A stretch of 64,000 nt of DNA, taken from positions 52,702,001 through 52,766,000 of the forward strand of contig OZ076409.1 in the NCBI GenBank assembly GCA_964187785.1, read 5' to 3'. The stretch comes from Amphiscolops sp. MND2022 (taxonomy: Eukaryota). Below the pieces are notes generated by a model. The model was not told the origin of the DNA and did not search any database. It worked only from the letters and a program-made list of their open reading frames with translations. Made by a program: the position numbers and the translations under genes. Below, piece after piece: positions 12,772 to 40,460 of the stretch (positions within the stretch are counted from its first letter, which is position 1; each line of letters begins with the position of its first letter).

Positions 12772-14332
12772 TGTCACAGTCCGCGCCCGGACTGGATTGA
12801 ATTAAAAGCAAACTAAAACTAATATAGGTCACCGCTTCGCCAATACGATTGAATTTGCGTCGCGACTACGCTACGTCACAGCTATGGCAGCTAGCTAGAA
12901 TTTCATTCCAAAATGTGACGTCAGCATGTCGTCTAACTTGGCAGCTAGTCAGAAATTCATTCCAAAATGTGACGTCAGCATCTCGTCTAACTTGGCAACT
13001 AGCTAGAAAGTATTCTAAATCAGACGACGATATGACGTCACAGCTATGGCAGCTAGCTAATTTTCATTCCAAATTTACGTCCACTATATCGGCGGACTAA
13101 GTCTAATACTAATACGTACGTCCAAGTTACGTCGCAAATCCATCAAAATAGCTGTTTTATTCCATCCAAAACACCACATTGACGTCCACGCTACGTCCAC
13201 TATAATGGCGGACTAAGTGTAATACCAAATTTACGTCCACTCTACGTCCCAATTTTATAAAATTAGGCGTTTTAGTCTGTATTAAGTTTAAAAGAAGCTT
13301 TATTTTACTACGGTTAAACTAATCGAAGCTAAAATATGAATCAACGTCAACACTACGTCGCAATTTAACTAACCAAACCAAATTTTGAATCTACGTCAGT
13401 ATTGCGTCGACTAAGATTCAATTCGAACGGAATATGGTATTTAAGCCAGGATTTTTCAGATTTACTTAAAATAACAGTGTTTTGATACGATTTACATTGA
13501 AAAGTCACAGTTTATATTCAACTTGTGTTAACAAAATGAAGTCCAAGCTGGATTTTAAATGTACGTTTTGACTACCTAATTTCATAAGTTCATATGCTGT
13601 TTGACGATGTCACGTCGTCTTTTATTGTTGCTCAAAGGTGTTGCTCCTAACTTTAATCAGATAAATATTTATCAATTGTTGAAATATATAATTGTTTAGC
13701 CTCATGTAAATCAGTCACTCTCTTAGCATCACCAAATTGCCTAAATCAAGATAATTAGTCATAATTTTCTTCAAGTGGAAATTCAAAATCAGGTATTAGT
13801 TGTTCACGTCAGCGTCATCTCCGCGTCGGTTTCTTACGAACCAAAGCAGAAAAACGGGGAAGTATTTCCGGTTTGACAGACTGAAGTAATATCTACTTCC
13901 TGCTTGGGAGGAAGCAAAAGGACGCCGGAATGAAATGATATGATCATGATTGATGTCTAATACTAGATTAGAATTGCCGTGTCTTAAAAATTGACGAAAT
14001 GCTGACGAAGATCAAAGTTTTCCCGCAAAATTACAGGAAGTGACTAATATCTCGATAGAAATTAAAGTACGCGAGTATGAACAGATGATGCTAGGAGGGT
14101 ATATATAGCTTGTACCTGTAAACTTATTCATTCAATTTCTGATTCAATCTGCTGTCTTGTATCAAATTCTACTTTGTTTTGTTAAAACAATTACTCTGCA
14201 AACTTCAATTCAAAATTGATAAATCCGAAAATCTTTTCATCAAGAGAAGCTAGAAAAGAAGAATGACCTTCAAAAAAGCAACAACAATAATCAGAAATGT
14301 ACAGAACAACGACCCTAACAGGAGTCGTAACA
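12772..14332 (+). repeat. 5' LTR of element C
   Basis: TGTCACAG...CGTAACA; direct repeat of 16077-17637; 54-bp internal repeats from 12914; TATATATA near 14100. Confidence 0.95.
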
Positions 14333-14344
14333 TGGTGACAGGAG
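14333..14344 (+). promoter_or_regulatory. Primer binding site TGGTGACAGGAG (element C)
   Basis: Directly follows LTR CA; identical to A and B. Confidence 0.9.
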
Positions 14345-14466
14345 TTTTGGACCTTTCAACAAATGTACCCAAGAAAACCTCAGCTTAAACTAACGTCCAA
14401 AGAGCGTCCCTGCATTTTGCGGAAACTCTTCGTCCCAGAAACGAAGACGAACATACACTAATTGAG

Positions 14467-14592
14467 CAACGCAACCCAAACGGCAAATGGAGACTACTTG
14501 TTGACCGACTGATGATAAACGAGTTAAAATTCGACGACTACACCAACAACACTCAACCCGTCAGTACATCGTCAGATGCAGTCCAACACCTG
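14467..14592 (+). pseudogene. Reverse transcriptase remnant in element C
   Basis: QRNPNGKWRLLVDRLMINELKFDDYTNNTQPVSTSSDAVQHL aligns with A QKKPNGKLRLLVDLRKINNLISDDYINNNHPVSTLVDAAQHL. Confidence 0.85.
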
Positions 14593-15015
14593 CCGAAGAC
14601 ATCGTTTACCACAACACGAGGTTCCAAAAGCTGGCAACATACCCCTGGGGCGTTACCTTTGCCCAGAGTCGGGTGAATTAGCTCACATCGGTAAGTATTA
14701 AAAAAAAGAAAAACTAGACTCTTCCTGAGGCCGAGATGTGCGCTCGAAAGATGACAAAGACGTAATCACTGAAGCACACATTCCCGAATCGACTAGTCAG
14801 AAAATCTAAGCTATGAACATACAAAAGCAGAAAAGGCCTATCTGCAGTTTCGTATGATTCAGAAAAGCTTAATGGAACGCGGAATGTTACAAACCTAAGG
14901 GTTGCTGAAAAACCAGCGCGTTGGCGTCACTAAGACGCACATCTCCCTCAGAGAACAAAAATGAGTCCTATTATCGTCTTGCAGACCATGACCTTTTAAG
15001 ATCATATGTATCTTA

Positions 15016-15175
15016 AAATGACCGGGTTATAACAGCCCATATGCAAAGACGACGCAAGATTGACGTCGCAAATGACCGGGTTATAACAACCCATATACAA
15101 AGACGACGCAGTATTGACGTCGCAAATGACCAGGGTTATAACAGCCCAATACTGATACGACGTCATTATGACGTC
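15016..15175. repeat. 54-bp tandem repeat, about 3 copies, containing TGACGTC
   Basis: AAATGACC(G/A)GGGTTATAAA-like unit starts at 15016, 15070 and 15124. Confidence 0.85.
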
Positions 15176-15224
15176 AACAGTGACCGCAAAAAATTGAAGT
15201 TGGCTTATCGCTAACAAAAGACGC

Positions 15225-15500
15225 TGACGTCATCAAAACGGTGACAAAATCTAAAGTTGGCTAATTACCAACGAAATTGACGTCGGCATAACGTCGACAC
15301 AAAGGTTATCAGGGTTAAGAATTAATCCTATAATCTATAATGACGTCATCAAAACGGTGACAAATTCAAAAGTTAGCTATGCTAACGAAATTGACGTCAG
15401 CAAAACGTTGACAACTTTGGTCAAACGAATTAATTTAATTCGTGGCCAATAAAAACGGGACGTTGGCAAAACGTCAACACCTGGGACTATAAAGGAATTA
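15225..15500 (+). promoter_or_regulatory. TGACGT-rich putative internal promoter, homologous to B 27640-27910
   Basis: Colinear with the reverse complement of the B spacer; CCAAT at ~15446 and TATAAA at ~15488 upstream of the 15549 ORF. Confidence 0.6.
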
Positions 15501-15548
15501 AAAGACAGCTTCTACCACCTCCCAAAAAGTGCTATACCGAACTACAGA

Positions 15549-15752
15549 GTGGTACCGGAAATGTCACATTCCTCTGGGAAAGCGTACAACCAAAACAATC
15601 CTCTGTTCAGTTTTGACAACCCCACGAGATATCTTCGTCCCATGAGAGTGGCCCTGTCACAGTCCGCGCCCGGCCTGGATTGTGGTTGCCGAGAGGCGCA
15701 GTTTGGACGTGATCATGGATGCATTATGAAAACAGTTAGACTATCTTATTAA
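15549..15752 (+). CDS. Short accessory ORF with CGC...FGR.HGC motif, homolog of the C-terminus of B ORF 26746-27501
   Basis: RPMRVALSQSAPGLDCGCREAQFGRDHGC vs RPMTVALSQSAPGLGCGCLRVGFGRGHGC, with many synonymous differences. Confidence 0.55.
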   Translation: MVPEMSHSSGKAYNQNNPLFSFDNPTRYLRPMRVALSQSAPGLDCGCREAQFGRDHGCIMKTVRLSY

Positions 15753-16076
15753 ACTGAAATAAACTGTGACAAGTTAAAACCATCAAAATCTAAATTATGA
15801 ATGATTTCAGAACTTAAAACATTCCGAGATAGTTTCACACATTTCCGGACATGCGTAGTGATGACAGTAGAATTTTAATCATTTTCCTGCAAAATGCAAC
15901 CGAGACATATCATTGGAATTACTTGTCGCAAAAAGAACGAAACTACGTCAAAATTTAGGACTAAAGAAAACAAAAACAATTTGATAACCAATTAATTGAC
16001 GGTAAAATACTTCCCTAACATCATCTCTTTCATTTTATCAAGCCCCCGAGAACCATTCGTCCTATGAGAGTGGCCC

Positions 16077-17637
16077 TGTCACAGTCCGCGCCCGGACTGG
16101 ATTGAATTAATAGCAAACTAAAACTAATATAGGTCACCGCTTCGCCAATACGATTGAATTTGCGTCGCGACTACGCTACGTCACAGCTATGGCAGCTAGC
16201 TAGAATTTCATTCCAAAATGTGACGTCAGCATGTCGTCTAACTTGGCAGCTAGTCAGAAATTCATTCCAAAATGTGACGTCAGCATCTCGTCTAACTTGG
16301 CAACTAGCTAGAAAGTATTCTAAATCAGACGACGATATGACGTCACAGCTATGGCAGCTAGCTAATTTTCATTCCAAATTTACGTCCACTATATCGGCGG
16401 ACTAAGTCTAATACTAATACGTACGTCCAAGTTACGTCGCAAATCCATCAAAATAGCTGTTTTAATCCATCCAAAACACCACATTGACGTCCACGCTACG
16501 TCCACTATAATGGCGGACTAAGTGTAATACCAAATTTACGTCCACTCTACGTCCCAATTTTATAAAATTAGGCGTTTTAGTCTGTTTTAAGTTTAAAAGA
16601 AGCTTTATTTTACTACGGTTAAACTAATCGAAGCTAAAATATGAATCAACGTCAACACTACGTCGCAATTTAACTAACCAAACCAAATTTTGAATCTACG
16701 TCAGTATTGCGTCGACTAAGATTCAATTCGAACGGAATATGGTATTTAAGCCAGGATTTTTCAGATTTACTTAAAATAACAGTGTTTTAATACGATTTAC
16801 ATTGAAAAGTCACAGTTTATATTCAACTTGTGTTAACAAAATGAAGTCCAAGCTGGATTTTAAATGTACGTTTTGACTACCTAATTTCATAAGTTCATAT
16901 GCTGTTTGACGATGTCACGTCGTCTTTTATTGTTGCTCAAAGGTGTTGCTCCTAACTTTAATCAGATAAATATTTATCAATTGTTGAAATATATAATTTT
17001 TTAGCCTCATGTAAATCAGTCACTCTCTTAGCATCACCAAATTGCCTAAATCAAGATAATTAGTCATAATTTTCTTCAAGTGGAAATTCAAAATCAGGTA
17101 TTAGTTGTTCACGTCAGCGTCATCTCCGCGTCGGTTTCTTACGAACCAAAGCAGAAAAACGGGGAAGTATTTCTGGTTTGACAGACTGAAGTAATATCTA
17201 CTTCCTGCTTGGGAGGAAGCAAAAGGACGCCGGAATGAAATGATATGATCATGATTGATGTCTAATACTAGATTAGAATTGCCGTGTCTTAAAAATTGAC
17301 GAAATGCTGACGAAGATCAAAGTTTTCCCGCAAAATTACAGGAAGTGACTAATATCTCGACAGAAATTAAAGTACGCGAGTATGAACAGATGATGCTAGG
17401 AGGGTATATATAGCTTGTACCTGTAAACTTATTCATTCAATTTCTGATTCAATCTGCTGTCTTGTATCAAATTCTACTTTGTTTTGTTAAAACAATTACT
17501 CTGCAAACTTCAATTCAAAATTGATAAATCCGAAAATCTTTTCATCAAGAGAAGCTAGAAAAGAAGAATGACCTTCAAAAAAGCAACAACAATAATCAGA
17601 AATGTACAGAACAACGACCCTAACAGGAGTCGTAACA
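16077..17637 (+). repeat. 3' LTR of element C
   Basis: Direct repeat of 12772-14332; about 7 substitutions seen by eye. Confidence 0.95.
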
Positions 17638-22900: not shown

Positions 22901-22908
22901 TGCGGGGG

Positions 22909-23154
22909 TGTCAAGGTTTACCATCAGCCTCGCAAGGCGGGAATGATCGAATGGTGAGCCACGACCCCTAAGGTTCAAGTACCTGCAAGATGACATCGAA
23001 CAAACAACTTTTGATGCCGCACATTCATGTACCTGTTTGTGCGATACAACAGACAACTCTCATGACAACCTCAGACAACAGACAATCTCAGATACCGCAC
23101 ATTTTTTGTTGATTCTGAATTCAGTTCTTCATTCCTACCCAACCTGTTTTAAAA
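22909..23154 (+). repeat. Copia 3' LTR
   Basis: Preceded by GCGGGGG; followed by TSD AAGAA. Confidence 0.85.
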
Positions 23155-24495: not shown

Positions 24496-26855
24496 TGTTA
24501 CGACATATATCCTGGTCGTTTTGTGTTGAACTTATCCTAACTGATCTAGTAGGGTGTAGAAACTCCTAGTTTCATTTTCCATCCCCTCTTCAACATTCTC
24601 TCTTGTTTGAGGTTTCAAGAGCTTCATCATTTCCTTTTGGGATTCAATTAGGAGATTCTTAATCTGGGAGGTGATTTCCTCCTTCAGAGATGCTCTCAAA
24701 CTTTCTAGAAGGCTATTTTCAATCCTGGGGGATTTTGGTTTTGAAGGCCCCGCCGAACTAACGTCTTGTTCTGGAAAACAAGGATCCTCTCCTACTACTG
24801 GTGAAACGAAACCATCACTTACATTTTCACTATTTCCCTGTTGGAAGTTCTTTCTCTTCTGACTTCGAGTTGTAGACATTTCAATGGAGAAAAGATTTTC
24901 TGATGGGTTGAATTTCTTTTCAAGGTTTTCAACAAAGTTGAGTTAAAATGAGGTTGAGACAAGCAAGTTTGAAACAACTGATTATCGCAAGAGGCAAAAG
25001 ACTGAGTCCCTTAATCATCAAATTTCACCGTATTTATACCTTCCCAGCATCATTTGATCACGACTATAATCCCTAATTTTCCTCGAACAATTAGTCATTT
25101 CCTGTTTTACCGATGGAAAAATCACGAAGTTCCCAAATTTGCGTCGACATTTCGTCAATTTTTAAGACACGGCAAATTTAAACTAGCATTAGTCATCAAA
25201 CATGATCATATCATTTTATCCCGGCGTACTTTTGCTTCCTCCCAAGCAGCAAGTAAATATTACTTCAGTCTGTCAAACCGGAAATGTTTCCCTGTTTTAC
25301 TGCCTTGGTTCGCGGGAAATTGACGCTGAGATGACGCTGACGTGAACAACAAATACTTGATTTTGAAATTCGGTTTGATCAAAATGCTATGACTAATCAC
25401 AAAGCAGGATTATTTGAATGATGCTAAGACGAATTTTTAATGAATTTGGACTCATTCTTTTGTCGGGAAAAGAATTAAAACTCATGGTATTAAAATAATA
25501 CACCATTAACAAATTTGTCATGTCGCGATAAGTGCGACAGATTTCACAAGAGTAACAGCAACATTTGTTTGATAGCAACAGCAACATAATGAGTTTAATG
25601 AATAGCAACATTGAACTGGTATTTAAATATGATCACAATCATAATTATAGAATAGCATCTGAGATCGTCGGGTACAAAAATGCAAAAGATATGAAAATAC
25701 ATCTTTTGTACAAAATACATTTTAGTTGAAGACGTACACTGTGACTTCCTGTTTGTTCTGCTATGAAATTTCGTAATAAAAATAGCCTATGCGAGGAAAT
25801 TCCCTTATTATTGAAAACACATGACGATTAATTGACGTGGATTTGAATTATCCTATGCGTGCCAAAAATATACCTAAAGTCAGAACTTTAAATCGCGGAA
25901 TCTTTGCAATACACTTGTTTTACAATCTGAAATAGTCTGCAATTATCTCTCCCTAGGAAATAACGGCGTTAGTGCGACGAACACTTGGCTGAATTCAGCG
26001 AATTCATTCCTTTTATTCAATTTCATAAACTTGTCAACGTCATGTTCACGAGTTTTCTTGGCAGAATTTAAGCTTCATAAACTTGTCAACGTCATGTTGA
26101 CGAGTTTTCTTGGCAGAATAGAGATTTTGACTAGTTTGACGCAATGCTGACGAGTATTTTAGAAATGAGTCTCTCGCTAGCTGCCCGAGCAGTGACGTCA
26201 CAGCAGCGGTAAATTGGATTGATTTCTAGCAATGCTATTAGTTTAGGCGGATAATTGGAATGATTTCCTGGTACGCGTATGCGAGGCAGTGACGTCAATT
26301 GGTATACCTTCAAACTTGTCTGCGTCTTACTGACGACAAATATACATGTATTCTTATTTTCTCCGCTGCCGTGTTTACTCAGCGCAATATTGACGTCCTA
26401 AATCACACTAATTGCTATCCAAAGAGTAATTAAGCTGCCTTTCTAAGAAAAGTCTTAATCCTTTCGGTGTGCCTTCTCAGAGTATTTTCCATTTTAGATC
26501 TGATTGATGTTCTTTTTGAGAGATGACTTTGACTATGCTTTCATTTAGATTGGGCTGTGGTTTTCTTTTTTCTAAGCGTGTTTTAATTTAGTTTTCAGGT
26601 GGCGGATGTCATTGAATTGACGTGGCAAAAGCGTCTCAACCGGAAATGTAAGATTCAATTTAGCACATTCATTCTTTGTAACTAGTTTCATTTGAAATTT
26701 CCGTTGATCAGACGTAATTTTGTTTTCTTAGTCACAGTTTAATAATTAGTTTTGATAGTTAAAGTAAGTTTTTTCGAACCTCGCGGTGCAGCCGTGGCCT
26801 CTCCCGAAGCCAACTCTTAAACACCCACAACCCAGTCCGGGAGCGGACTGTGACA
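24496..26855 (-). repeat. 3' LTR of element B (contains gag N-terminal copy 24532-24879 and the end of the accessory ORF)
   Basis: Direct repeat of 40461-42790 with scattered substitutions and small indels. Confidence 0.95.
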
Positions 26856-27501
26856 GGGCCACTGTCATAGGTCTTATCGTCCTCCCTTGGAAACTCGGTT
26901 GGTAGAGAGGGTATTGTAGCTCGTAGACATTTGGGTCAACTGCTTGGTCCCTGGATGGAGGCACTACTGCCGGGCCCCTTTCTTCATCTAGCTCGTTTTG
27001 AGATTCCTTCTTCTGCTCTCCCCAAACTCTCAGAGGGCCGCGGGGGGATTCAAAGTAAGAGCTGGCATCGTCCTCTTCTGCTTGTCTTATGAATTCAGCA
27101 ACTTTACTGCTAGTCATGGAGGACGTTTCTTCTTCGTGAGGTTTCTCTACGACAAACACATCTGAATTCAGAGAGGGGTCAGGACTTTCCGTCGAGTCCG
27201 CTATTATTTCCTCCTCGCTTTCTGATTGAGGGTATTGGCCCGATTCTACTGTTTCAAAACTTGTGTACGATTCACTGAGTTTCATCCTTTTACATTCAGT
27301 TTCCAAGGAGTTTAAGGAAAGATCGAGAAATTCTTCCTCATCTGCCTCGGCTTCTGCAGACGAATTTAATATCTCTACTACTATTCTAGGGTATATTTCG
27401 CTGTCTCTAGGCAGTGGGGTAGAAGATCTTGTAATTTCGCCTTCCTCTTCGCTTGACGATGAAATGTCGAATAATTCGTATATGTCCAGTAAACTGTTCA
27501 T
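26746..27501 (-). CDS. Acidic Ser/Glu-rich accessory protein (251 aa) overlapping the PPT site and U3 of the 3' LTR
   Basis: Intact ATG-initiated ORF; last ~36 codons inside the LTR; C-terminal motif conserved with the element C ORF. Confidence 0.7.
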   Translation of the reverse strand: MNSLLDIYELFDISSSSEEEGEITRSSTPLPRDSEIYPRIVVEILNSSAEAEADEEEFLDLSLNSLETECKRMKLSESYTSFETVESGQYPQSESEEEIIADSTESPDPSLNSDVFVVEKPHEEETSSMTSSKVAEFIRQAEEDDASSYFESPRGPLRVWGEQKKESQNELDEERGPAVVPPSRDQAVDPNVYELQYPLYQPSFQGRTIRPMTVALSQSAPGLGCGCLRVGFGRGHGCTARFEKTYFNYQN

Positions 27502-27966
27502 CTTCTTTATTTGACTTCTCTCCTCTGCGACTGTTGATCGTATTTTAATTGTTCCACAATGAATTTCAGCTTATTTGGGATTAAGGAGAATATTGGGAAA
27601 AATCCCTCCATTCTGATTGGCTGTTCAATCATTTTAATCCTTTTAAACCTCAGGTGTTGACGTTATGTCGACTTTGCATTTTTATTGGCTTTAAATTGAA
27701 ATAATTTACTTAGCCAAACTTGTCAACGTTATGCTGACGTCATTTTCGTTAGCTGAGCTAACTTTCAGGGTTTGTCACCGTTATGATGACGTCATTGTAG
27801 ATTACAGGATTAATTTCTTAACCCTAGTGACCTTTTTGCCGACGTTGTGCCGACGTCAGTTTCGTTGGCAATTAGCCAACTTCCATTTTTGTCACCGTTA
27901 TCATGACGTCATTTTGTTGTTGTTTTCACGTCTTCTCTCGTTTCAGATTTCTTGCTAGTTTCGACA
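27502..27966. promoter_or_regulatory. Putative bidirectional promoter between two head-to-head accessory genes
   Basis: Spacer between ATG 27501 (-) and ATG 27967 (+); multiple TGACGT(CA) motifs, CCAAT boxes; conserved in element C. Confidence 0.6.
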
Positions 27967-30900
27967 ATGGATTCTGATGTGGGTCCCTGTGTTCAAAGTG
28001 GACATGAGACACAATACTTGTTTTCGGAGGGGGACATCCATGAAATGATCCTTTGATTTCCCAACCTGCCGTTGGTAAGTTCATCATTCCCCGATCCATT
28101 AAGCTGTTGTGAATAATACTAGTTTCAGATGGGCCTTTTCCTGATTTCGCATTTTCACAGCTTAGATTTTCTGACGCGTCGATTTGGGAATGATGTTTCA
28201 GCTTCTGTGTCAGCAGTGTCTCCTCCTGTGTGCGCTGCTCCTGCCCTTGCTTCTGGGGTTTCTCTTCCAGCTGATTTGACTGGAGTTTCCATTGAGCCGG
28301 TCAAGGCTAGTTCTGCTGAGTGTCCTGTCGACGACCTGGATGTGACTCTGGGGGCACTCGCACGACAGCTTGTTTCTTCTTCCGCAGTTGTTCCTCACGG
28401 AGGTGAGGGTTATCCCCCCTCCTAGAGTTGTTGAGTGAGAAAGCGGGGAGCGGCAAGGGACTTCCGAAGGGACTGGTGGAGAGTTCTGGAAATCGTCTCC
28501 TCGATTCACTGGTTTCCTACCTGGCTTCAGTCGGACTTTTGGTGCACAGGGATCGTCTCCAATACCCAAGCGTGGTAAGTATACTGTTTGTTTGGGGTGG
28601 TCATTTCTGGTTGTTTGTTAGTAGTATAGCATTGGTGATTGGTTGACATCATTGTGATGTATTTCTAGTTGATGGTTTTGATATTTGCTAATTCTGGTGA
28701 GGAAAATTCCGTGGTCAATGAGGCTTCTCAACAGCTTCGTCCTGGTACTTCTCGAGGCACTGGCAGAGTCGTGCAGTTCAACTTGGGTTGTAGTGGTGAC
28801 GAAGAGGTCGAGGAATCAGTTTTGCCCCGGGGTTCAACATCCAGGGGAGGACGAGACGTAACTGCCGTCACTAGTACGGATGTTCACGCTGTGGATCCAT
28901 TTGTTGCCAGTAGGTACAGTTTATTTTGGGTGATGGGGGAACGTCTTGTTGTAAATGGTTTGGTTATCTTTAGTGGAGGAGTAAGGATATGAGTGGTTAC
29001 TGTTAGGGTTTTCCTCTATCCCATTGAGGATGTGTTTGTTGTTTCAGAGTTCGAAGAGTTGCTTAGACGAATGGAGATGACTCTCGATGATGCTTCTCGT
29101 AGTCGGAAACGAAAGTATAGCCCTCGAAATCGATTGCGGCGGGATATGGTTACTGGGAATCCCATTTTCGAGCTTTTCGTCAGTGGGTCCAATACTGGGT
29201 CAGACAAGACCTTCCACTGCATGCTCTGCCAGCGGGACGTGTCCATGGAGTCGCGGGGGGCAGCTGAGTTTACCCGACATTTCTTTGGCAAGCGGCACTG
29301 GCAGCTCGATGTGGCCTATCGAGTTCGAAACAACATGCCGATTTACAATGGACTGATGGACCCAATGGTACCCAACGAGAGTCAACTGGCAGAATATCGC
29401 GAGTGGCCTTCAAAAGGCAAAAGTGAGGATTTGGCTTCCCTGAGGACTTACTACCGGCATGTACCCAGGTCAATTCGAGTGTGCCATTGATGACAATGGT
29501 TAATTGTCTTGTTGTGCTGTTGCGTTCCGGAGGGAGTTATACGCTGCTACGAAGACTGTGGGGGAGTTTCCGGGCCACTTTGGGTCGTGACAGTCCTCTT
29601 TACAGCTTGAATTGGAGACAGGCTGAGTCATTGGTTAGTTGTAGTTTTTGCAATATCTTCCTCTCTTTTTTCTCTCTTTTTTTCTCGGTGATTAGCGTCA
29701 TCCGTTTGTGTGCGTAAGGTTGGATGACGGTCAGTTTAGGTTGTGTTTTATTCGCTGATTTGTCGTGCACTATTTCCACGGGCCTTACGTCTGCTGATCT
29801 CTCGCATCTCAGCTTTCCGGGAATACAGCATATTCTTTGTGGAGGATGACGAGTCACATAGGTGCTTCGTGCAGACATGGAACGACCATATCCTGATGAG
29901 CGTTTGTGTCTGGGTGGAGCCTGTGGGGCAAATCGTTCCAAAAGCGGAGTTGTCGGGGTTGTCGCGGATTATCGACAGTACGACGTCGTGCCAGTTGCCT
30001 CTCTCGTGTCATGGAGGCAGCCTCACACTCATGCGCGTTCTCAGCGAGAACCGGATTGACAATCGGAGTTTCATTGTGTACCGGGAGTTCAGCGTGGACG
30101 TGTTCTTGCATTGCTTCCGACTTGCCTATCAGGAGACGATCGGAGGACTGGAGGTGACAACAATGGCCGATTTCCTTGTCCTCCGCCTGCGGGGTGCCTT
30201 GCAGGAATCCTGGCTAGAGAATGCGACTGCATTGCGTCGATGTGTTGCTGCAGGACGAGTTCCCTTCAACGATCTCTGTGGTGTCGTGCGAGATTTGATC
30301 TCTGTGTGGCGTTCCGTTCGGAAATTCATCAAGGAAAGTGCTCCACGACAAATCAAGACTGAGGCTGACAGGGTAATTCGCTTCAATTGTATCATTTTGG
30401 ATCTTGTTTGGTTGGGGGGGTTTATGTGGTCATATCCTTCTCTGTTGTTTTATTTCTCTTTTTTTCTTTTTTTTCGACTTGTCCTGTTTTGATTGGTTGG
30501 TAGTAGACTAGAGCATTTGGTTTTGTACTATTCACGGTCTTCCTTGACTGTTATAGATGCGTGGTACAGACTGGACTGTGTATTCTGATTGTATTGGCGA
30601 ATTGCGCTTGGGCTTGTTGTTACACATTCTGGAGCTGTACCATTGTTCATTCAAGAAACAAATGTCCGGACGATCAGATTACAGCTTTCACTTCTATACG
30701 GAAGTGTGTCAGTTTGTGTATTGTTTGCTGTCCCGCACCCGAAAAATCGCCTCGCTCCCTGAGTTGAATAGTTGGGAGGAGTATATGGATGAGCAGAGAG
30801 TCGATGAGTTTGAAAACGTTGCCGCTTCCGACTTTTTGCGTAATCACTCTTTTGGTGTTGTGTTGCAAGGCCGTAAAGATAGTGATGGCCGATCCTTTCG

Positions 30901-32020
30901 TGAACAGTGTATTAAATTTATGGATCGCCTAGTTGATGCTGTTCTTATGCAGCAGCCTGTAACTGGGGAGTTTTTTTGTGGATTTTATGCCTTTTCTCCT
31001 GAGTTGCTGTTGGAGGGCGACGACTATCGCATGTTGGAGCTCTTCCGAAAAATGGTGCGTGTGTTGGAATCCAGCGGATGCGTCACATCTTTGGAGTCAA
31101 GGACTGCCGTCGAGGAGTATTCGACTTTTGTTGTAGATGCCCGGAAACGTCATATGGTCGGTGGAAGTAGCGCTGAAGATATATCTGATGTTAGGCAGCA
31201 TTTGTTGTCGGATTATAGTTTCCTGTCACAAAAACCTCTGTGCCGCGTTTTCAAGTTATGCTGCTTGGTCGTCTTGAAGCCCCGTAGTGGCTTCCCTGTC
31301 GATATTGTGCCTACTCATTGTGAAGTGCCGGAGTGGGTGGTGGCCACATGCGTGAGTGGCGTGCAGAGTAGTGTTTCGTCTAGCGATTTTAAATTGAGTA
31401 CTTTCTTCACCAAGTTCACTATGAATGAAGTTCGGGATTCAATTGACGCTGCTCAGACGTTCATGTCGCAAGCGGACTTCGATCCATGGGCAGGAATCTG
31501 TGGTGGTGGTGGTGGTCAGGCTGCTTTTGTGGAGCGCTACACAGATTTATTCAACGCGCGGGTGAGTCGCAAAAAGAGCAGAGTTTCCCAGCAAGTTAGT
31601 GCTTATGATGAGTCCAGTCGGGGTGTGCAGCCTGGTGACGACGATGGTGTTTCTGCTGCTGTTCTTTATGATAGTGCTGCTTCAGCGGTATCTGCACCTC
31701 CTGTATCTACGTCAAGTGGTTCGAATTCGTTCAGACAGAGCAAAACTCCTATTCATAGCAGTTTAGCTTCATTACTGGGGCGAAAGAAAGATGCGTCGAA
31801 AAGTAGTAGTCAAGTCGTGAAGAAATCCAAGAGGGAGTCTAAGAAATCTGTTACCAAGTGTGGGGTTCAAGCTCGAAGAAAAATTGAATGTCCCCTTTTA
31901 GACTGTTGTCAAACTTTGTCGTATCGTAGACTTTGTAGTATAGATTGTATTATTTGTTTGTTTCTATGTTTGCATATTAGTAGCAGGAAAACCGGACGTA
32001 TAAAGTTCGGCTGGAGTTAG
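27967..32020 (+). pseudogene. Six-exon antisense accessory gene (~1100 aa) with BED/hAT-like zinc finger; exons 27967-28074, 28129-28574, 28669-28909, 29048-29633, 29740-30372, 30557-~31887/32020
   Basis: Five GT-AG introns with compatible phases (0,0,1,0,0); CMLC-x16-H-x5-H finger at 29218-29298; one TGA in exon 1 and 1-bp frameshifts near 28420 and 29428. Confidence 0.8.
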
Positions 32021-32135: not shown

Positions 32136-34470
32136 TTAGTGAGTCGTAGTCATAGCGTCAAGTCGTCTGAAGTCGGGATTCGCATTAGGTTTAGGATTAG
32201 ATAGCAAGTTATATTTTGCTATTTTCCTCGCATTATATCCAACAACTGTAGGCGGTGATCTTGGGGGAATAGGTGGGCTTTCAGTGAGGGGAGGGCGGCG
32301 TATATACGGGTTATCCCCCACGTCTGTAGTAAGGTTTGAAAAATCCGGTGACGGTGGTGCCACGTCATGCGTGTCTTCATTTTGATTGTCTGATATTTGT
32401 TGTGTGATCGTGTCGTCATCTGTGTTCACCACCTCTTGTGTGACTATTTGCTGATTGTTTTCTGCACTTCTTGTCACTTCGTGTTCGTCTATTTGTTTGG
32501 CAAAATCCATTTCCCACGATAGGGCATACCATTCATTGTGCGACACTTTGACGTCCTGATCAGGAAGGTTTTGATTTGTTCGTACTGTGACGTCGGGCAG
32601 TCGTTGTTCTGGCACGTAAGGACGTATTCTAATCCGATGTAACGTTTGTGTGTATCGTGTGCCAAGTCTTCGTATTGTGTAGTTGTTATTGGATAGTATT
32701 TTTATCACAATATACGGTCCTGTCCAGATGCAATCTTGGAACGCAAACTTTGTCGTTTGGTTGTCGGCTTTCGGGTTGAGGATGTAGCAATAGTCGTTTA
32801 ATTTGAATGGAGCTGCCGACGCTTTGCGGTCGTAATATTTTTTATATTTAAGGTAAGACAGCATGATGTTGTCTTTCGCTGTCGCTCTTACTTCGTCAAT
32901 TTGTTTTTGTAGCTGCTCTGCTATGTCCGAGTTGGGCGTAGTTTTCCACTTTGGCTTGATACCAAGTTTTAAATCGAGAACCTTGTAGGGTATACGTCCG
33001 TGGAATACTGTAGATGGTGCGCAGCCCAGTGTTTCGTGATATGTTGTATTATAATTCATGACTGCAATTTGAACATATTTGTGCCACATTGAACGTCTTT
33101 CTCCCGTCGATATTTTTAGTGCAGTCTTGATTGAAGCGTGTGTTCTTTTTAAAACTCCAATTGTTTGTGCATGTTTTGTGGACGCATGGCTGATTTGGAT
33201 TTCAAGAATCTGTGTTATTTCTGCGACAACTTCTGACCTGAATTGTGAGTCTTTATCTGATAAGATTAATGTTGGCAAATATGCATGTCTTGTCATGACG
33301 TCGACAATGCATCGTCCAATTGTCTTTGCTGTGGCATTCTGCGTTGGGTATGCGAATAGGTAACGCGAGAACACGTCGATCATTGTGACAATGATCTGGT
33401 ATCCTGCAGAGTTTGGTAGGTTTGCCAGTATGTCGATTTCGAGTATGTCTTCTGGTCCCAATACGTGTTCTGTATTGTTGATCCTTTTCGGTCGGATTTG
33501 GCTGTTGTTGATTCTTTTGTATTTGATGCAGTCTTCGCATTGCATTACCCATTGTTTGATCCTCTTTGCCAAGCCAGGGCAGTAATGTTTCGATCTGCAT
33601 TCATGGATCATTTTGGTGATTCCTGGGTGTTTTCCCATTTGTCCGTGAATGGCTTTCAGTAGTTCTGTGATTAGGTCTTCGGGGATTACTATTTGATGAT
33701 GCGTGACTTGTCCGCATTCCCCATAGTATTTTCGCATTAGGATTCCGTCTTTGACTATTAGTCTGTTTTCGTGGACTAGGAGGCGTTTGGCTTTCGGATC
33801 TGTTTGTAGTAGGTGTTTGTCATATTCTTCGCAGATCAATTTCCTCTTGATTGCTTTGAGAACCAAATCTGAGTCTTGTTCAACTCTGATGCGTGCATCT
33901 TCTTTGATGGCCCCAAAGGTGTATGATGCCTTGTTTATTGGGATTGGGGTTGTTTCTTTGATTGACAGTTTTATTTTCATCGTCTCCTCATCACGTGCAT
34001 TCTGTCTTGCTTGATCTTTCTGTAAAAGGATCTCTTCTTCTGTTCCAATCGTTTCCTCTGGGAGACAAAAGAGTTGTTCTTCATCTGTGACGTCCGTCGA
34101 TTGTAGGTTTACTTGTATTGGTTGGATCGTAATGTCGTTTCGGATTTTTAGTTCGACTTTTTCGTTAGGGTTAAGGTCAATTCTCGATAAGAAATCAGCA
34201 GCGATGTTTTGCGTTCCTGCTACGTGCATGATGTGAAAATTGAATTGTAGTACGTAGTCACACGCGTTCCATAGAGTAGGGGGAATAACTTTTGTTTGGA
34301 AAAACCTCGTTACTGATCTGTTTTCAGTCATTACAAGAGTTGGTAGGGTTGTTTCCCACAACATGTGGCTGTATTCTAAGAACGCGTGGTAGATTGCCAG
34401 AAATTCTTTGCAATAAATTGACATTTTCAGTTGCGCTGGTGAAAATACTTTTGATCCAAATGCTACAGGC
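32136..34470 (-). CDS. pol: Element B RNase H C-terminus and full integrase (duplicated copy; ORF 32136-34424)
   Basis: HGQMGKHPG...CEDC, EIDIL, LSDKD, WTGPY motifs; core E appears mutated (VLKRTH). Confidence 0.9.
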
Positions 34471-36817
34471 GCTTGTTGTTACACATTCTGGAGCTGTACC
34501 ATTGTTCATTCAAGAAACAAATGTCCGGACGATCAGATTACAGCTTTCACTTCTATACGGAAGTGTGTCAGTTTGTGTATTGTTTGCTGTCCCGCACCCG
34601 AAAAATCGCCTCGCTCCCTGAGTTGAATAGTTGGGAGGAGTATATGGATGAGCAGAGAGTCGATGAGTTTGAAAACGTTGCCGCTTCCGACTTTTTGCGT
34701 AATCACTCTTTTGGTGTTGTGTTGCAAGGCCGTAAAGATAGTGATGGCCGATCCTTTCGTGAACAGTGTATTAAATTTTTGGATCGCCTAGTTGATGCTG
34801 TTCTTATGCAGCAGCCTGTAACTGGGGAGTTTTTTTGTGGACTTTATGCCTTTTCTCCTGAGTTGCTGTTGGAGGGCGACGACTATCGCATGTTGGAGCT
34901 CTTCCGAAAATTGGTGCGTGTGTTGGAATCCAGCGGATGCGTCACATCTTTGGAGTCAAGGACTGTCGTCGAGGAGTATTCGACTTTTGTTGTAGATGCC
35001 CGGAAACGTCATATGGTCGGTGGAAGTAGCGCTGAAGATATATCTGATGTTAGGCAGCATTTGTTGTCGGATTATAGTTTCCTGTCACAAAAACCTCTGT
35101 GCCGCGTTTTCAAGTTATGCTGCTTGGTCGTCTTGAAGCCCCGTAGTGGCTTCCCTGTCGATATTGTGCCTACTCATTGTGAAGTGCCGGAGTGGGTGGT
35201 GGCCACATGCGTGAGTGGCGCGCAGAGTAGTGTTTCGTCTAGCGATTTTAAATTGGGTACTTTCTTCACCAAGTTCACTATGAATGAAGTTCGGGATTCA
35301 ATTGACGCTGCTCAGACGTTCATGTCGCAAGCGGACTTCGATCCATGGGCAGGAATCTGTGGTGGTGGTGGTCAGGCTGCTTTTGTGGAGCGCTACACAG
35401 ATTTATTCAACGCGCGGTTGAGTCGCAAAAAGAGCAGAGTTTCCCAGCAAGTTAGTGCTTATGATGAGTCCAGTCGGGGTGTGCAGCCTGGTGGCGACGA
35501 TGGTGTTTCTGCTGCTGTTCTTTCTGATAGTGCTGCTTCAGCGGTATCTGCACCTCCTGTATCTACGTCAAGTGGCTCGAATTCGTTCAGACAGAGCAAA
35601 ACTCCTATTCATAGCAGTTTAGCTTCATTACTGGGGCGAAAGAAAGATGCGTCGAAAAGAGTAGTCAAGTCGTGAAGAAATCCAAGAGGGAGTCTACGAA
35701 ATCTGTTACCAAGTGTGGGGGTTCAAGCTCGAAGAAAAATTGAATGTCCCCTTTTAGACTGTTGTCAAACTTTGTCGTATCGTAGACTTTGTAGTATAGA
35801 TTGTATTATTTGTTTGTTTCTATGTTTGCATATTAGTAGCAGGAAAACCGGACGTATAAAGTTCGGCTGGAGTTAGTCAGGTTGAGAAAAAGAAAAGAAA
35901 GGAAAGAAAAAAATTCCCAGGCCGTAGTATGCCTATAATTGAAAATCGTCAGATCGGATCGGTCTGGACTCCTGATATTATCTTTTTCTTTTTAGTGAGT
36001 CGTAGTCATAGCGTCAAGTCGTCTGAAGTCGGGATTCGCATTAGGTTTAGGATTAGATAGCAAGTTATATTTTGCTATTTTCCTCGGATTATATCCAACA
36101 ACTGTAGGCGGTGATCTTGGGGGAATAGGTGGGCTTTCAGTGAGGGGAGGGCGGCGTATATACGGGTTATCCCCCACGTCTGTAGTAAGGTTTGAAAAAT
36201 CCGGTGACGGTGGTGCCACGTCATGCGTGTCTTCATTTTGATTGTCTGATATTTGTTGTGTGATCGTGTCGTCATCTGTGTTCACCACCTCTTGTGTGAC
36301 TATTTGCTGATTGTTTTCTGCACTTCTTGTCACTTCGTGTTCGTCTATTTGTTTGGCAAAATCCATTTCCCACGATACGGCATACCATTCATTGTGCGAC
36401 ACTTTGACGTCCTGATCAGGAAGGTATTGATTTGTTCGTACTGTGACGTCGGGCAGTCCTTGTTCTGGCACGTAAGGACGTATTCTAATCCGATGTAACG
36501 ACTTTTTCTTTAGGGTTAAGGTCAATTCTCGATAAGAAATCAGCAGCGATGTTTTGCGTTCCTGCTACGTGCATGATGTGAAAATTGAATTGTAGTACGT
36601 AGCCACACGCGTTCCATAGAGTAAGGGGAATAACTTTTGTTTGGAAAAACCTCGTTACTGATCTGTTTTCAGTCATTACAAGAGTTGGTAGGGTCGTTTC
36701 CCACAACATGTGGCTGTATTCTAAGAACGCGTGGTAGATTGCCAGATATTCTTTGCAATAAATTGACATTTTCAGTTGCGCTGGTGAAAATACTTTTGAT
36801 CCAAATGCTACAGGCGC
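34471..36817. repeat. Tandem duplicate of 30612-34472 carrying a 1.5-kb internal deletion
   Basis: 34473-35675 repeats the antisense last exon; 35992-36500 repeats the IN tail; junction at 36500/36501 skips the equivalent of 32645-34155. Confidence 0.92.
34473..35675 (+). pseudogene. Duplicated, 5'-truncated last exon of the antisense accessory gene
   Basis: Near-identical to the 30557 ORF from LLHILELY onward. Confidence 0.9.
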
Positions 36818-39426
36818 AAAAATTTTCTTTTTGGAATTGAGTTTTTTGTCGTTTTCTTCTTCGATCATTAACGCATATCTTGAGGCGCGAAAACTAGCAT
36901 CCGTCATTAGGACGTATTGTCGTCCTGTGATTGGTTGTTTGAGGGCTAGTCCACATGCTTCCGCTAGCGCTGCGTTGATCGCTTTGTAGTCTAGCAATTC
37001 TTCTGTGACCTTGATTTGTTTGTCTGCTTTCAGTAGCTCGTAGAAGCCGAGTAGCTTTTCTGATAAACGCGGGATAAAATTGCGGTAGTAGTTGACAAAG
37101 CCTATGAATCTCTGTACTTGTTTCTTTGATTTCGGGAATCGTACATTTGCAAGAATTTCTGGATTTTGTGGCCTTGAGGGGCGATTCTTTGTGGGGTAAT
37201 CGTTCTTCCAAGGAATTCGACCTCGGTCACTCCGAAGTGACATTTGTCGATGGATAGTTTGAGTCCTGCTTGTCTGATGCATTCGAAGACAGCTCGAATG
37301 TTCCGTATCAGTTGCGTCACGGAGTTGGCAGCTATTCCGATGTCGTCTAATTATTGCGCGCACTGGTCAGCCTTGATTACCTTGTCCAAATATTCTCTCA
37401 TGAAACTAGAGATGCTGACAGAGCTCTGCTCAGTCCTTGTGCCAGTCGTTTGTAGGCGAACGTTCTGCTTGCAAAGTTGAACGCTAGCATTTCGATTGAT
37501 CTCTGGTCTGCCATTTGTAGACAGTGGTATGCTTGGGAGCAATCTAATTTACAGAACAACTTTTTCCCAGCTAGGTGTTGAGCTGCGCCCGACAGGGTAC
37601 TGACTGGGTGGTTGTTGTTGAGATATCAGTGCGTCAGATATCAGTGCGTTGGTTTTTCGCAGGCCAACGATTAGACGTAGTTTACCATTTAGTTTACGTT
37701 GTGCAAAAATAGGACTGTCATATTTTGAAAATGGTAATGTACTGATTATGCCATACCTATGCATGAGTGCCAGTTCGACTGTTAGGTCTTGTTTGAGGTT
37801 GATCGGTACTGGTAGACTCTGTGTATATATGGGTCGTTCGTCTTTTGGCGTCAGTTTCACTTTGAAGTTATTATTGATGCCGATGTCGAGTCTGTGACGC
37901 GCAAAGATGTCGTTGTATTCAACTATCGTTTGCTCTAGTTGTTGCTTGTCATTGCCTTCAATCTGTGATCCTTCCTATTTGAACATATCGAGGAACTCTT
38001 TCCTTGATTCTGGATCTTTGGTGGGGTCGAGGTGTTCTTTCTTCATGAGTTCTGTGATTTCTTTTAATATTCGCCTTTGTATTGGCGTGTGTTCATCTTC
38101 ATTTCCTGGGTTTTCGGGTGTTGGGAACCAGAGGTTTTCGTCATATTGTTCGTTGTTTGTGGATTTCATGAGTTCATTTACATACATGTGCGTGTCATCT
38201 GGGTCTTGTAGGGTGGTCAACGTTGCAACGTCTACAGGTCGTATTTGTTTGGTGTCCTCTGGCCTCAGGATTTGCAGTTCTGCCATTTTGGTATGTTTTT
38301 TTATGGTGTGCGGGAGATCTGTCAAGTTGGCTATTCGGAGATTGATTCGTTTGTTGTGAGCTGTGGCTAGTGCTGGTGCGACAATGATGGTGGCTGTTTC
38401 ATCGAACTGTGGTAGTGGTTGTACTGCCCCTGTGATGTCGATTGCATTGGTGGTTATTACTATTGCATTTACGGTTGTTGTTTGTTGTGGTAGCAACGTC
38501 TGGTTCCCTTCAGCTATGATTTGGAGAGGTTTGGGGTTACAGTTTTTCTTTTCATCTGTCATGGCTAATGTCATTTCGACGTGAGGGACGGTGATGGCCC
38601 CGTTGGCGGTATCTATCACTGCTTGATGGTTTCTCATGAAATTCAATCCGATTATGGAGAATGACGTCTTTGATAGTATGACAAAGGTGTCAGTGAACGT
38701 GTAGGTTCCGATTTTGAATTGAATGTCGGCTGTGGCGATAGGTTGCTCCAGTTGTGCGTTGGCACATTCAATTTTGAAAGGAGGTTGTGGGTACTCCTTT
38801 ATGACACAATTATTGCTGTTCATTTTAATGGCGTTGTAATCAGACCATGACATGGCATTGATGAACGCTCCTGAGTCGACGAGGCCGTCCGTTGTTAGTT
38901 CTCCCAATTCCAGTGGCAAGTAAACCATTCGTCTTCTGTTCTTGAGGACTATTGTTGAGTTTAGATGTATATAGGTATCCCCGTCTCTTTCGGTTATGTA
39001 CTCTTTGATTGGTTGAGCGCGGTGGGGAAGTCGTTATGGAAGATAGATAACTTGGTAGTTTTGTGAGTATCTTCATCAGTCGTTTGTGACGGGAGATTGT
39101 CGTCGTGGGCGTTTTCATTGTTGTCTGTTTGTGTTGTAACAGAGAGTTCCTTGGTATTGGTGGTTGGCTGAGAGAATGGATTTGTGTGATTTTGATAATT
39201 GCTTCTATAATCTTGATCTTGCAGGAATGTTGTTTCCTGTTCTTTTTCTGGGGGTGGTCTCTTTATGGAGGCGATGGCTAGTTGCCTCAGGCAGGGAATT
39301 TTCTGTTGGAGTACCAGTGCATTCTGCTGTTGTGTCGGTTGTGTATATGGTACGGGGGTCTTCTGGTGAATACGCCCTCGCGTCTACTGTTTCCCCAAAG
39401 CGCAGGCGCGGCGTAATTAGTTTTTT
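35992..39426 (-). pseudogene. pol: Element B pol (protease, RT, RNase H, truncated IN tail), frameshifted
   Basis: LVDSGA protease (ORF 37975-38928); RT fragments with *LDD replacing YLDD; FIGFVNYYRNF, LMTDASF; integrase core deleted in this copy. Confidence 0.92.
39417..39426 (-). promoter_or_regulatory. -1 ribosomal frameshift site A AAA AAC TAA (element B)
   Basis: Same TCAAAAAACTAA as A, followed by a GC-rich potential stem (GCCGCGCCTGCGC...GACGCGAGGGCG). Confidence 0.75.
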
Positions 39427-40448: not shown

Positions 40449-40460
40449 CTCCTGTCACCA
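40449..40460 (-). promoter_or_regulatory. Primer binding site TGGTGACAGGAG (element B)
   Basis: Adjacent to the LTR edge where LTR-LTR identity ends. Confidence 0.92.

What the first reader, a model, noticed from the sequence alone, without database searches (positions are those of the whole stretch)
26746..27501. Second accessory ORF spanning the PPT/U3 junction with a selected C-x-C...H-x-C motif
Seen: a 251-aa acidic ORF runs from the internal region into the 3' LTR. Its C-terminal 29 codons match an ORF in element C at 22 residues, and 11 of those conserved codons differ synonymously; within CGC...FGR.HGC, 7 of 9 conserved codons differ only synonymously. Element A's inferred LTR start also reads (L)SQ in this frame. 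Established: retroviral accessory genes such as HIV nef and MMTV sag overlap the 3' LTR in this way. Inference: a real protein with an acidic activation-like region and a possible 4-ligand metal site, perhaps a transactivator; the analogy is positional only.
Basis: partly seen in the sequence, partly recalled or inferred. Interest (0 to 1): 0.78.

Follow-up and report, generated by a model that had tools for sequence, protein, structure and literature searches.

The report
Retrotransposon accessory gene running into LTR
A large family of jumping genes carries a conserved extra gene that runs into the element's terminal repeat, as in complex retroviruses; its probably unstructured protein likely works in the nucleus, where it is predicted to bind SUMO-tagged host factors and so help the element escape silencing.

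Summary
The 251-aa ORF (26746-27501, minus) is a real gene of a Ty3/gypsy clade, with its last 36 codons in the 3' LTR. At least 12 subfamilies carry it, under purifying selection (dN/dS 0.13-0.26 in 12 resolvable pairs). (1) VALSQSAPGL is fixed at DNA level (LTR end); only codons 225-238 show protein selection. (2) The fourth ligand is Gly in a large young subfamily, so the core is C-x-C-x8-H. (3) Element C's match is an internal, apparently decaying relic, not in its LTR. (4) Element A reads VSQ and has its own selected ORF crossing the junction, not detectably homologous. Conserved CRE/CCAAT/initiator-like motifs upstream and a poly(A)-like signal after the stop suggest a separate transcript, back to back with an antisense gene. 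Both clades' proteins start with a SIM-like motif. Best guess (0.4): a nuclear adaptor that engages SUMO-dependent silencing machinery. No RNA or binding data were obtained, and no outside homologue was found. The scan earlier noted the antisense gene, the LTR-initiated gag and a similar 'ORF Z' on other DNA of this genome.

The parts
26746..27501 (-). Sense accessory ORF ('ORF2') of element B, 251 aa; two codons longer than most sister copies
27442..27474 (-). SIM-like motif, residues 10-20 (L-F-D-I then S4-E3 here; L-I-D-I in most sister subfamilies); function predicted
   Evidence: SIM definition in PMC12751080
27280..27291 (-). Basic K-R-M-K (residues 71-74), NLS-like; likeness to the c-Myc NLS is recalled
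26830..26862 (-). Codons 214-224: LTR junction conserved as DNA (plus-strand priming/att region), with two short inverted repeats
26788..26829 (-). Codons 225-238: protein-selected motif C-x-C-x-R-x3-G-R-G-H-G-(C/G)
26738..26743 (-). ATTAAA just after the stop (AATAAA in most sister copies): candidate poly(A) signal of the ORF2 transcript
27558..27911 (.). Candidate bidirectional internal promoter: initiator-like TCATT (27558-27562), CCAAT boxes (27615-27620, 27684-27688), TGACGTCA x3 (27735, 27787, 27904), ACGKTGACAA x3
24496..26855 (-). 3' LTR of element B (2360 bp; TATA-like box about 25031-25038, initiator-like about 25000-25005)
40461..42790 (-). 5' LTR of element B (95% identical to the 3' LTR); carries a start-less copy of the motif codons (42684-42791) and the gag start (40845)
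27967..32020 (+). Antisense, intron-split accessory gene of element B (C2H2-like finger; weak hAT-transposase likeness); interrupted and partly duplicated in this copy
32136..40845 (-). gag-pol of element B (PR, RT remnant, RNase H, integrase), rearranged in this copy
15561..15752 (+). Element C: internal relic of the ORF2 tail and LTR junction (63 codons from the first ATG), behind a copy of the internal promoter
12772..17637 (+). Element C: non-autonomous derivative, 1561-bp LTRs 99.6% identical, 5-bp target duplication
8698..10648 (-). 5' LTR of element A; its 3' LTR and its own junction-spanning ORF lie outside the window (L031:4414-6364 and 6279-7105)

Best explanation
This is a selected accessory gene of a Ty3/gypsy retrotransposon clade whose last 36 codons lie in the 3' LTR; it is likely transcribed from its own internal promoter, and its protein is predicted to be a disordered nuclear adaptor that would bind SUMO-marked host chromatin factors and so likely blunt silencing of the element. 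Shown: the gene, its position, its spread over at least 12 subfamilies, purifying selection along the whole ORF, faster divergence than integrase, and exchange of its N- and C-terminal halves between subfamilies. Inferred from sequence: a short mRNA from a CRE/CCAAT/initiator-like promoter, ending at an AATAAA just inside U3; nuclear import by K-R-x-K; SUMO binding by a hydrophobic core followed by a Ser/acidic run; a C-x-C-x8-H(-x-C) tail that holds zinc, with the fourth ligand optional and perhaps supplied by a partner. Inferred by analogy only: that the outcome is anti-silencing, acting through conserved host factors and not a family-specific DNA site, possibly alongside the antisense transposase-like protein made from the other side of the same promoter.
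For: Selection: dN/dS 0.13-0.26 with upper bounds at most 0.56 in 12 of 12 within-subfamily pairs with dS of at least 0.09; motif codons vary at positions 1/2/3 in 8/4/14 of 14 columns, p=1.8e-4. Own transcription unit: TCATT in 55 of 63 copies, about 58 nt behind a CCAAT box in all 7 subfamilies, purine at -3 in 62 of 63, AATAAA/ATTAAA within 45 nt of the stop in 53 of 63; ACGKTGACAA 9 times in the window against 0.31 expected. Adaptor-like build: pLDDT 48, one short helix, no hydrophobic segment, conservation in short islands. SIM-like motif in the first 60 aa of 41 of 59 B-clade and 70 of 87 A-clade proteins against 2-3% of shuffles, although the two families show no detectable homology. 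K-[KR]-x-[KR] in 10 of 11 B-clade proteins listed. Arms-race-like rates: pN 0.20-0.40 for ORF2 against 0.007-0.07 for the integrase core over 36 pairs. Modules swap freely. SUMO is needed for piRNA-guided transposon silencing in Drosophila (10.1101/533091, abstract); many viral proteins carry SIMs (PMC12751080, passages); transposon-encoded anti-silencing proteins exist.
Against: No RNA, protein or binding evidence was obtained. The SIM pattern was chosen after seeing the sequences, SIMs are loose motifs, and the counts rest on two lineages, not 146 independent cases. The window's own copy (L-F-D-I) and the most divergent subfamily miss the strict pattern. SIMs also recruit repressors, so the sign of the effect is not fixed by sequence. 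Low pLDDT from a 23-row alignment does not prove disorder. The poly(A) hexamer was missing in 0 of 4 copies of the most divergent subfamily and in 3 of 8 subfamily copies printed, and it has no shuffle control. Only 3 of 8 A-clade proteins listed have the basic motif. The search for a host SUMO gene returned ubiquitin-like proteins in the 6 loci read.
Confidence: 0.4

Rival explanations
1. A classical acidic transactivator, like foamy-virus Tas or HTLV Tax: the acidic region is an activation domain and the protein is brought to the CRE-rich internal and LTR promoters by its tail, by host CREB/ATF or by the antisense transposase-like protein.
For: Candidate internal promoter; TGACGTCA and ACGKTGACAA shared by the internal promoter and U3; acidic N-terminal 175 aa and basic tail; Tas is made from an internal promoter and has an acidic activation domain (PMC3798896, passages).
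Against: No folded DNA-binding domain is predicted. The tail does not track U3 type: two subfamilies with 96% identical U3 (nt 450-900) have tails 59% identical, twice over. ORF2 and the antisense gene are not co-inherited: pairs with antisense pN 0.09 and 0.17 have ORF2 pN 0.34 and 0.39.
Confidence: 0.25
2. A self-limiting repressor (like Bet or HBZ in effect): the SIM-like motif recruits SUMO-dependent repressors to hold down copy number or latency exit.
For: The same motifs fit; SUMO drives repression; Bet suppresses the internal promoter (PMC13220597, listing abstract).
Against: Fast divergence and module swapping fit conflict with the host better than stable self-restraint; young, high-copy subfamilies keep the gene.
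Confidence: 0.12
3. A cofactor of the pre-integration complex: it carries the cDNA into the nucleus or tethers it to SUMO-rich chromatin.
For: NLS-like and SIM-like motifs; such roles were proposed for extra ORFs of plant elements (PMC7264820).
Against: Integrase is nearly unchanged while ORF2 diverges and swaps; a separate promoter is not needed for a particle component.
Confidence: 0.12
4. A membrane-anchored, Nef-like adaptor in which C-x-C plus the basic tail is a lipidation site, not a metal site.
For: C-x-C followed by basic and aromatic residues; the fourth 'ligand' is dispensable. The likeness to palmitoylated motifs is recalled.
Against: Invariant His and G-R-G-H-G suggest a shaped motif; conserved NLS-like motif; no N-terminal Met-Gly; no hydrophobic segment.
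Confidence: 0.06
5. Not a protein: the conservation reflects DNA or RNA signals at the LTR end.
For: True for codons 214-224 (pS 0.056; third positions vary in 1 of 11 columns).
Against: Everywhere else third positions are saturated while residues persist; no Rfam match; folding z-scores -0.2 to -0.6 in 3 of 3 subfamilies.
Confidence: 0.02

Closest known systems
Foamy-virus tas/bel2 accessory genes (PMC3798896, passages)
   Same: Accessory genes next to the 3' LTR, expressed from an internal promoter; Tas is acidic and poorly conserved. That bel2 reaches into U3 is recalled.
   Different: No sequence likeness found; the host element is a Ty3/gypsy retrotransposon without env; the promoter here looks bidirectional; no DNA-binding domain is evident.
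HIV nef and MMTV sag (recalled, no call)
   Same: ORF overlaps U3 of the 3' LTR.
   Different: No Pfam hit, no Met-Gly start, no transmembrane segment; likely its own promoter and poly(A) signal, not a spliced LTR transcript.
[quoted passage not shown]
   Same: Family-wide extra ORFs of unknown function, some nuclear and driven by their own promoter.
   Different: Those are antisense or env-like; this one is sense, not env-like, crosses into U3, and sits back to back with a second, antisense gene.
Oikopleura Tor3b/4b env (PMC4402516, passages) and rotifer Vesta/Juno ORF3s (PMC5408684, passages)
   Same: Animal gypsy-type elements with a third sense ORF; in Tor it is driven by an internal promoter.
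   Different: Those encode membrane glycoproteins, esterases or exonucleases; this protein has no membrane segment and no known domain.
VANC and TnpA anti-silencing/regulatory proteins of plant DNA transposons (PMC5735166 listing only; 10.64898/2026.08.24.746577 passages)
   Same: Fast-evolving accessory proteins that help their element against silencing: the role proposed here.
   Different: They are sequence-specific DNA binders of DNA transposons; no homology found, and ORF2 is not matched to one U3 type.
SIM-bearing viral antagonists such as HSV-1 ICP0 (PMC12751080 passages; PMC3174244 listing only)
   Same: SIM with Ser/acidic flank in a largely disordered protein with a Cys/His module.
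   Different: No RING domain; SUMO binding is untested here.

Membership tests
Ty3/gypsy LTR retrotransposon (carrier element) | TG...CA LTRs with target-site duplication and a primer-binding site | tested here: met
   LTRs 24496-26855 and 40461-42790, TGGTG after the 5' LTR; 5-bp duplication with one mismatch in B, perfect in A and C
Ty3/gypsy LTR retrotransposon (carrier element) | gag, then protease, RT, RNase H, integrase in that order | tested here: met
   Pfam hits on elements A and B; order in intact relatives
Ty3/gypsy LTR retrotransposon (carrier element) | Polypurine tract before the 3' LTR | tested here: inconclusive
   The bases before the LTR are conserved as DNA but mixed purine/pyrimidine; priming not testable
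env-like third ORF | Signal peptide and transmembrane segment | tested here: not met
   Highest 19-residue hydropathy 0.36-0.97 in 6 B-clade proteins, 1.34 in one A-clade protein
Retroviral U3-overlapping accessory genes (nef, sag) | ORF runs into U3 of the 3' LTR | tested here: met
   36 codons inside the LTR; same in 8 of 8 subfamily copies printed
Retroviral U3-overlapping accessory genes (nef, sag) | Sequence homology; Met-Gly myristoylation (Nef) or membrane anchor (Sag) | tested here: not met
   No Pfam family, no meaningful PDB sequence match, starts Met-Asn
Foamy-virus Tas-type transactivator | Expressed from an internal promoter | tested here: inconclusive
   Conserved promoter-like motifs and spacing; no RNA available
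Foamy-virus Tas-type transactivator | Sequence-specific DNA-binding domain matched to its own LTR | tested here: inconclusive
   No folded domain predicted; tail does not co-segregate with U3 type; binding itself not testable
Foamy-virus Tas-type transactivator | Acidic activation domain that activates a reporter | not testable with these tools
   Composition fits; activity needs an assay
SIM-containing proteins | Four-residue V/I/L core with an adjacent acidic or Ser stretch | tested here: met
   41 of 59 B-clade and 70 of 87 A-clade proteins, shuffles 2-3% (pattern chosen after inspection; the window copy has Phe in the core)
SIM-containing proteins | Binds SUMO | not testable with these tools
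Four-ligand C-x-C...H-x-C metal site | All four ligands conserved | tested here: not met
   C225 42, C227 42, H236 43, C238 30 of 43 matched proteins (16 of 59 did not match the pattern)
Named zinc fingers (AN1, SWIM, GRF; likeness recalled) | Match to the family profile | tested here: not met
   No zinc-finger family for P0001 at E<=0.1 or five sister proteins at E<=1
VANC-type anti-silencing proteins | Sequence-specific loss of silencing marks on cognate elements | not testable with these tools
   Needs expression and chromatin assays
hAT transposase-derived protein (antisense partner gene) | hAT fold | tested here: inconclusive
   Model of the last large exon (pLDDT 64): Hermes 8edg tied for top Z 4.8, rmsd 5.4, 142 aligned, within the noise range; Foldseek nothing at E<=0.001

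The most novel reading that the evidence does not exclude
Two sister clades of animal Ty3/gypsy elements have a complex-retrovirus-like regulatory cassette: one bidirectional internal promoter drives a tamed DNA-transposase gene one way and, the other way, a small SUMO-binding nuclear protein that runs into U3 and disarms SUMO-dependent (piRNA/SetDB1-type) silencing. It would be the first retrotransposon-encoded antagonist of that pathway that these searches could find, filled by two unrelated proteins in the two clades.
Probability: 0.25. Interest if true: 0.88.

Novelty: new variant of a known kind. Interest (0 to 1): 0.62.

Why it matters
How LTR retrotransposons counter host silencing in animals is largely open; the known anti-silencing proteins come from plant DNA transposons. 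Here a very successful animal-type gypsy clade keeps a small, fast-evolving, selected protein with defined motifs that can be tested one by one (SUMO binding, nuclear import, zinc, reporter activity). The layout (internal promoter, gene crossing into U3, antisense partner, gag starting in the LTR) also shows retrovirus-style genome complexity without env. Each solo LTR carries the motif codons, so annotation pipelines call spurious host fusions.

Tried and rejected
Expression: no RNA holder listed for 26400-28300; this is no evidence either way. Homologues: 98 hits among 440 candidates, all unnamed ENA proteins without Pfam domains; 128 profile hits among 1.84 billion representatives, of which I read 24, all pieces of the same family or LTR read-through calls; no usable Atlas hit; none in viral contigs; PDB best hit ferritin light chain E 0.0095, judged compositional. 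Structure: model of alignment A1 too poor to search. Complex prediction of ORF2 with the three antisense exon products: not available. RNA structure as the cause of conservation: rejected. LIR (Y-E-L-I) reading of the N-terminus: not kept, as the aromatic residue is absent in the most divergent subfamily and the A clade does not fit. Splicing onto gag/pol: the bases before the ATG are A-rich with no acceptor-like tract. Element C as proof that the tail works alone: rejected, pS 0.25 against pN 0.21 over 14 codons against its sister family. Pol-less copies with intact ORF2 (L132, L185) as proof of cis selection: rejected, a pol-bearing copy has a 99% identical ORF2. A/B homology: hhalign probability 0.4%, E 0.14, only at the DNA-fixed junction. 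Antisense gene: no Pfam or PDB sequence hit, no longer homologue, Atlas leads under 0.9 to C2H2 fingers. A third clade could not be sought. Literature searches for a prior description: 0 papers; 2; 121, 20 listed; 12; 3; none listed describes this gene; subscription journals and Repbase/Dfam entries were not searchable.
Full report
OBSERVATION. The ORF is as described: 26746-27501 on the minus strand, 251 aa, 20% Asp/Glu and 13.5% Ser, acidic over residues 1-175 (46 D/E, 14 K/R) and basic over 206-251 (1 D/E, 6 K/R). It belongs to element B, bounded by 95% identical LTRs at 24496-26855 and 40461-42790, with TG...CA ends, a TGGTG primer-binding site and a 5-bp target duplication with one mismatch. 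Pfam finds protease, RT, RNase H and integrase in gypsy order in the window's elements. The 3' LTR starts inside codon 216.

CORRECTIONS. C's match lies inside the element; its real LTRs keep only eight codons of it. The sequence before the LTR is not a purine tract.

SPREAD. In the 1.07-Gb genome the protein gave 3574 candidates, of which 150 were scored, all at E<1e-87. Further searches gave more subfamilies; 12 were aligned, 23-96% identical by region. In one search, 129 of 150 scored matches had no stop inside (my count from the table; best-scoring matches are biased towards intact copies). By a strict pattern 59 of 97 fetched loci held a full-length frame (two of these end inside the motif, and the pattern missed the start of the most divergent subfamily, for which 4 of 6 re-examined loci were recovered). 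Public protein collections return only unnamed proteins; I read 24 of the 128 profile hits. No Pfam family, Atlas cluster, solved structure or viral contig explains it.

SELECTION. All counts are pairwise on natural copies. Over 21 pairs among 7 subfamilies (one copy each) synonymous sites are saturated while residues persist: pS/pN 0.76/0.32 (codons 1-60), 0.78/0.33 (61-110), 0.80/0.38 (111-171), 0.74/0.16 (motif 225-238); the linker 172-207 is weakly constrained (0.81/0.57). Codons 216-224 differ: pS 0.056, pN 0.082, a DNA-level constraint at the LTR end. Variable columns at codon positions 1/2/3 are 8/4/14 of 14 in the motif (p=1.8e-4), 2/2/1 of 11 at 214-224 (p=0.89) and 6/8/9 of 9 in the tail (p=0.17). 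Within subfamilies, 12 of 16 pairs have dS of at least 0.09 and give dN/dS 0.13-0.26 with upper bounds at most 0.56; 3 of the 4 very close pairs have intervals that include 1, as expected from post-insertion mutations. Pairs share ancestry and are not independent. RNA structure does not explain the pattern.

THE MOTIF. C225, C227, R229, G233, R234, G235, H236 and G237 are invariant in the 7 representatives; position 238 is Cys or Gly. Among 59 near-full-length proteins, 43 matched the pattern: C225 42, C227 42, H236 43, C238 30, Gly 10. The Gly form belongs to a large young subfamily (8 of 8 loci; clusters of 173, 40 and 22 members). The conserved core is thus C-x-C-x8-H. In C and its sister non-autonomous family, R229 and G235 or G233 are replaced, C227 is Tyr in 2 of 7 sister copies, and pS 0.25 is close to pN 0.21 over 14 codons (a small sample): a relic.

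TRANSCRIPTION UNIT (inferred). The 400 bp upstream align across subfamilies: repeated TGACGTCA with a linked ACGKTGACAA, two CCAAT boxes and a TCATT about 50-70 nt before the ATG; the most divergent subfamily keeps only the near CCAAT and TCATT. TCATT is present in 55 of 63 copies, typically 58 nt after CCAATC, with no ATG in between; purine at -3 in 62 of 63; AATAAA/ATTAAA within 45 nt after the stop in 53 of 63, but 0 of 4 in the most divergent subfamily. ACGKTGACAA occurs 9 times in the window (0.31 expected): three in B's internal region, two in its U3, three in C, one elsewhere. The main LTR promoter candidates lie 1.8 kb further on (TATA nt 1818, initiator-like 1851, gag ATG 1946). [quoted passage not shown] That CCAAT, CRE and initiator consensus mark promoters is established knowledge; no RNA was available.

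THE PROTEIN (predicted). AlphaFold gives pLDDT 48 and one helix (132-143) from 23 rows; there is no hydrophobic segment. Conservation is in islands: E-L-I-D-I-S-S-S-acidic, S-T-P, C-K-R-M-K-L, E-S-P-D, F-V-V-E, F-x-T-P-P-G, L-N-D-L and the tail. The first fits the SIM description of a V/I/L core with acidic or phosphorylatable residues (PMC12751080, passages). A pattern written after inspection finds it in the first 60 residues of 41 of 59 B-clade proteins, against 2.6% of shuffles; the window's copy and the most divergent subfamily miss it.

A SECOND CLADE. Element A's family (pol about 50% identical to B's relatives) has a ~260-aa ORF at the same place, crossing the junction in the same phase, with dN/dS 0.04-0.13 in the 4 of 7 pairs that are not saturated. 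It shows no detectable homology to ORF2, has C-x2-C and not the B motif, yet starts with V-I-Y-I-S-S-acidic in 70 of 87 proteins. The SIM-like start, the acidity and the LTR overlap are therefore the shared features; this amounts to two lineages.

EVOLUTION. Over 36 pairs of 9 subfamilies the integrase core has pN 0.007-0.072 and pS 0.31-0.66, ORF2 pN 0.20-0.40 and pS 0.66-0.81, the antisense last exon pN 0.09-0.35. ORF2 is mosaic: two subfamilies are 96% identical in residues 1-100 and 59% in the tail, and the tail follows neither the U3 core nor the antisense gene. Interchangeable modules fit action through conserved host factors better than lock-and-key recognition of the element's own DNA.

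MECHANISM. I commit to a nuclear adaptor that binds SUMO-marked host factors and helps the element resist silencing (0.4). Shown: gene, selection, modularity. Inferred: own mRNA, nuclear import, SUMO and zinc binding. By analogy: anti-silencing, since SUMO is required for piRNA-guided silencing in Drosophila (10.1101/533091, abstract and outline), viruses exploit SIMs and plant transposons encode anti-silencing factors (listing; passages). Rivals: Tas/Tax-like transactivator (0.25), repressor (0.12), integration cofactor (0.12), membrane adaptor (0.06), no protein (0.02). The first three share a nuclear regulatory role, about 0.75 together.

COMPARISON. Extra ORFs between pol and the 3' LTR are known in plant and fungal elements (PMC7264820, parts 1-2 of 3; PMC11963269, passages) and in animals (PMC5408684, passages; PMC4402516, passages, with an internal promoter for env). 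Foamy viruses express tas and bel2 from an internal promoter (PMC3798896, passages). The U3 overlap of nef, sag and bel2, the c-Myc NLS and the AN1/SWIM/GRF patterns are recalled. Searches listed no description of this gene or of a SIM-bearing retrotransposon accessory protein; subscription journals and repeat libraries were not covered, and no supplements were read. The antisense gene's hAT likeness, stated in earlier scan notes, was only weakly echoed here (Hermes Z 4.8, rmsd 5.4, 142 aligned, tied top).

VERDICT. A real, selected, unnamed accessory gene in a retrovirus-like layout: a new variant of a known kind. Interest 0.62; if it proves to be a SUMO-pathway antagonist, 0.88 (probability 0.25).

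Noticed in passing
L031:6279-7105 (just upstream of the window); alignment A2: Element A's clade has its own ~260-aa ORF crossing the 3' LTR junction in the same codon phase, with a SIM-like V-I-Y-I-S-S-acidic start and a C-x2-C domain; dN/dS 0.04-0.13 where resolvable; frameshifted in this copy; at least 150 genomic matches.
   Followed up: partly
window 27967-32020 (+) and 941-2146 (+): Intron-split antisense gene in both clades (21-25% identical in the last exon), with a C2H2-like finger and weak likeness to Hermes transposase; swapped between subfamilies independently of ORF2.
   Followed up: partly
window 39649-40845 (-) and 7838-9283 (-): gag starts inside the LTR (nt 1946 of 2360 in B) and reads through the LTR end and primer-binding site; also in element A.
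   Followed up: partly
window 12772-17637; L051-L080, L141-L154: Two high-copy non-autonomous families carry two LTR junctions: an internal relic with the motif and AATAAA, and a trimmed LTR lacking them; several lie in tandem about 3.3-3.5 kb apart.
   Followed up: partly
window 30612-36817: Element B has an internal 2-kb duplication and a rearranged pol, so this copy is defective although ORF2 is open.
   Followed up: no
window 26830-26866: Two adjacent short inverted repeats straddle the LTR start; no canonical purine tract precedes it in clade A or B.
   Followed up: no
L132, L185: Copies of the most divergent subfamily that lack RT/integrase and most or all of the antisense gene but keep ORF2 open.
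   Followed up: partly
P0166, P0167, P0170, P0171, P0175, P0180, P0181: Public gene calls in which unrelated flanking sequence reads into the LTR-borne motif codons: likely artefacts at 5' or solo LTRs, possibly real host fusions in a few cases.
   Followed up: no
window 20369-23060, 55508-61356, 12169-12756: A short-LTR element with copia-like remnants, a second gypsy element with 145-bp LTRs and no accessory ORF, and an inverted array of 21-bp repeats.
   Followed up: no
L195, L197: Long frames made of diverged ubiquitin-like repeats in the host genome.
   Followed up: no
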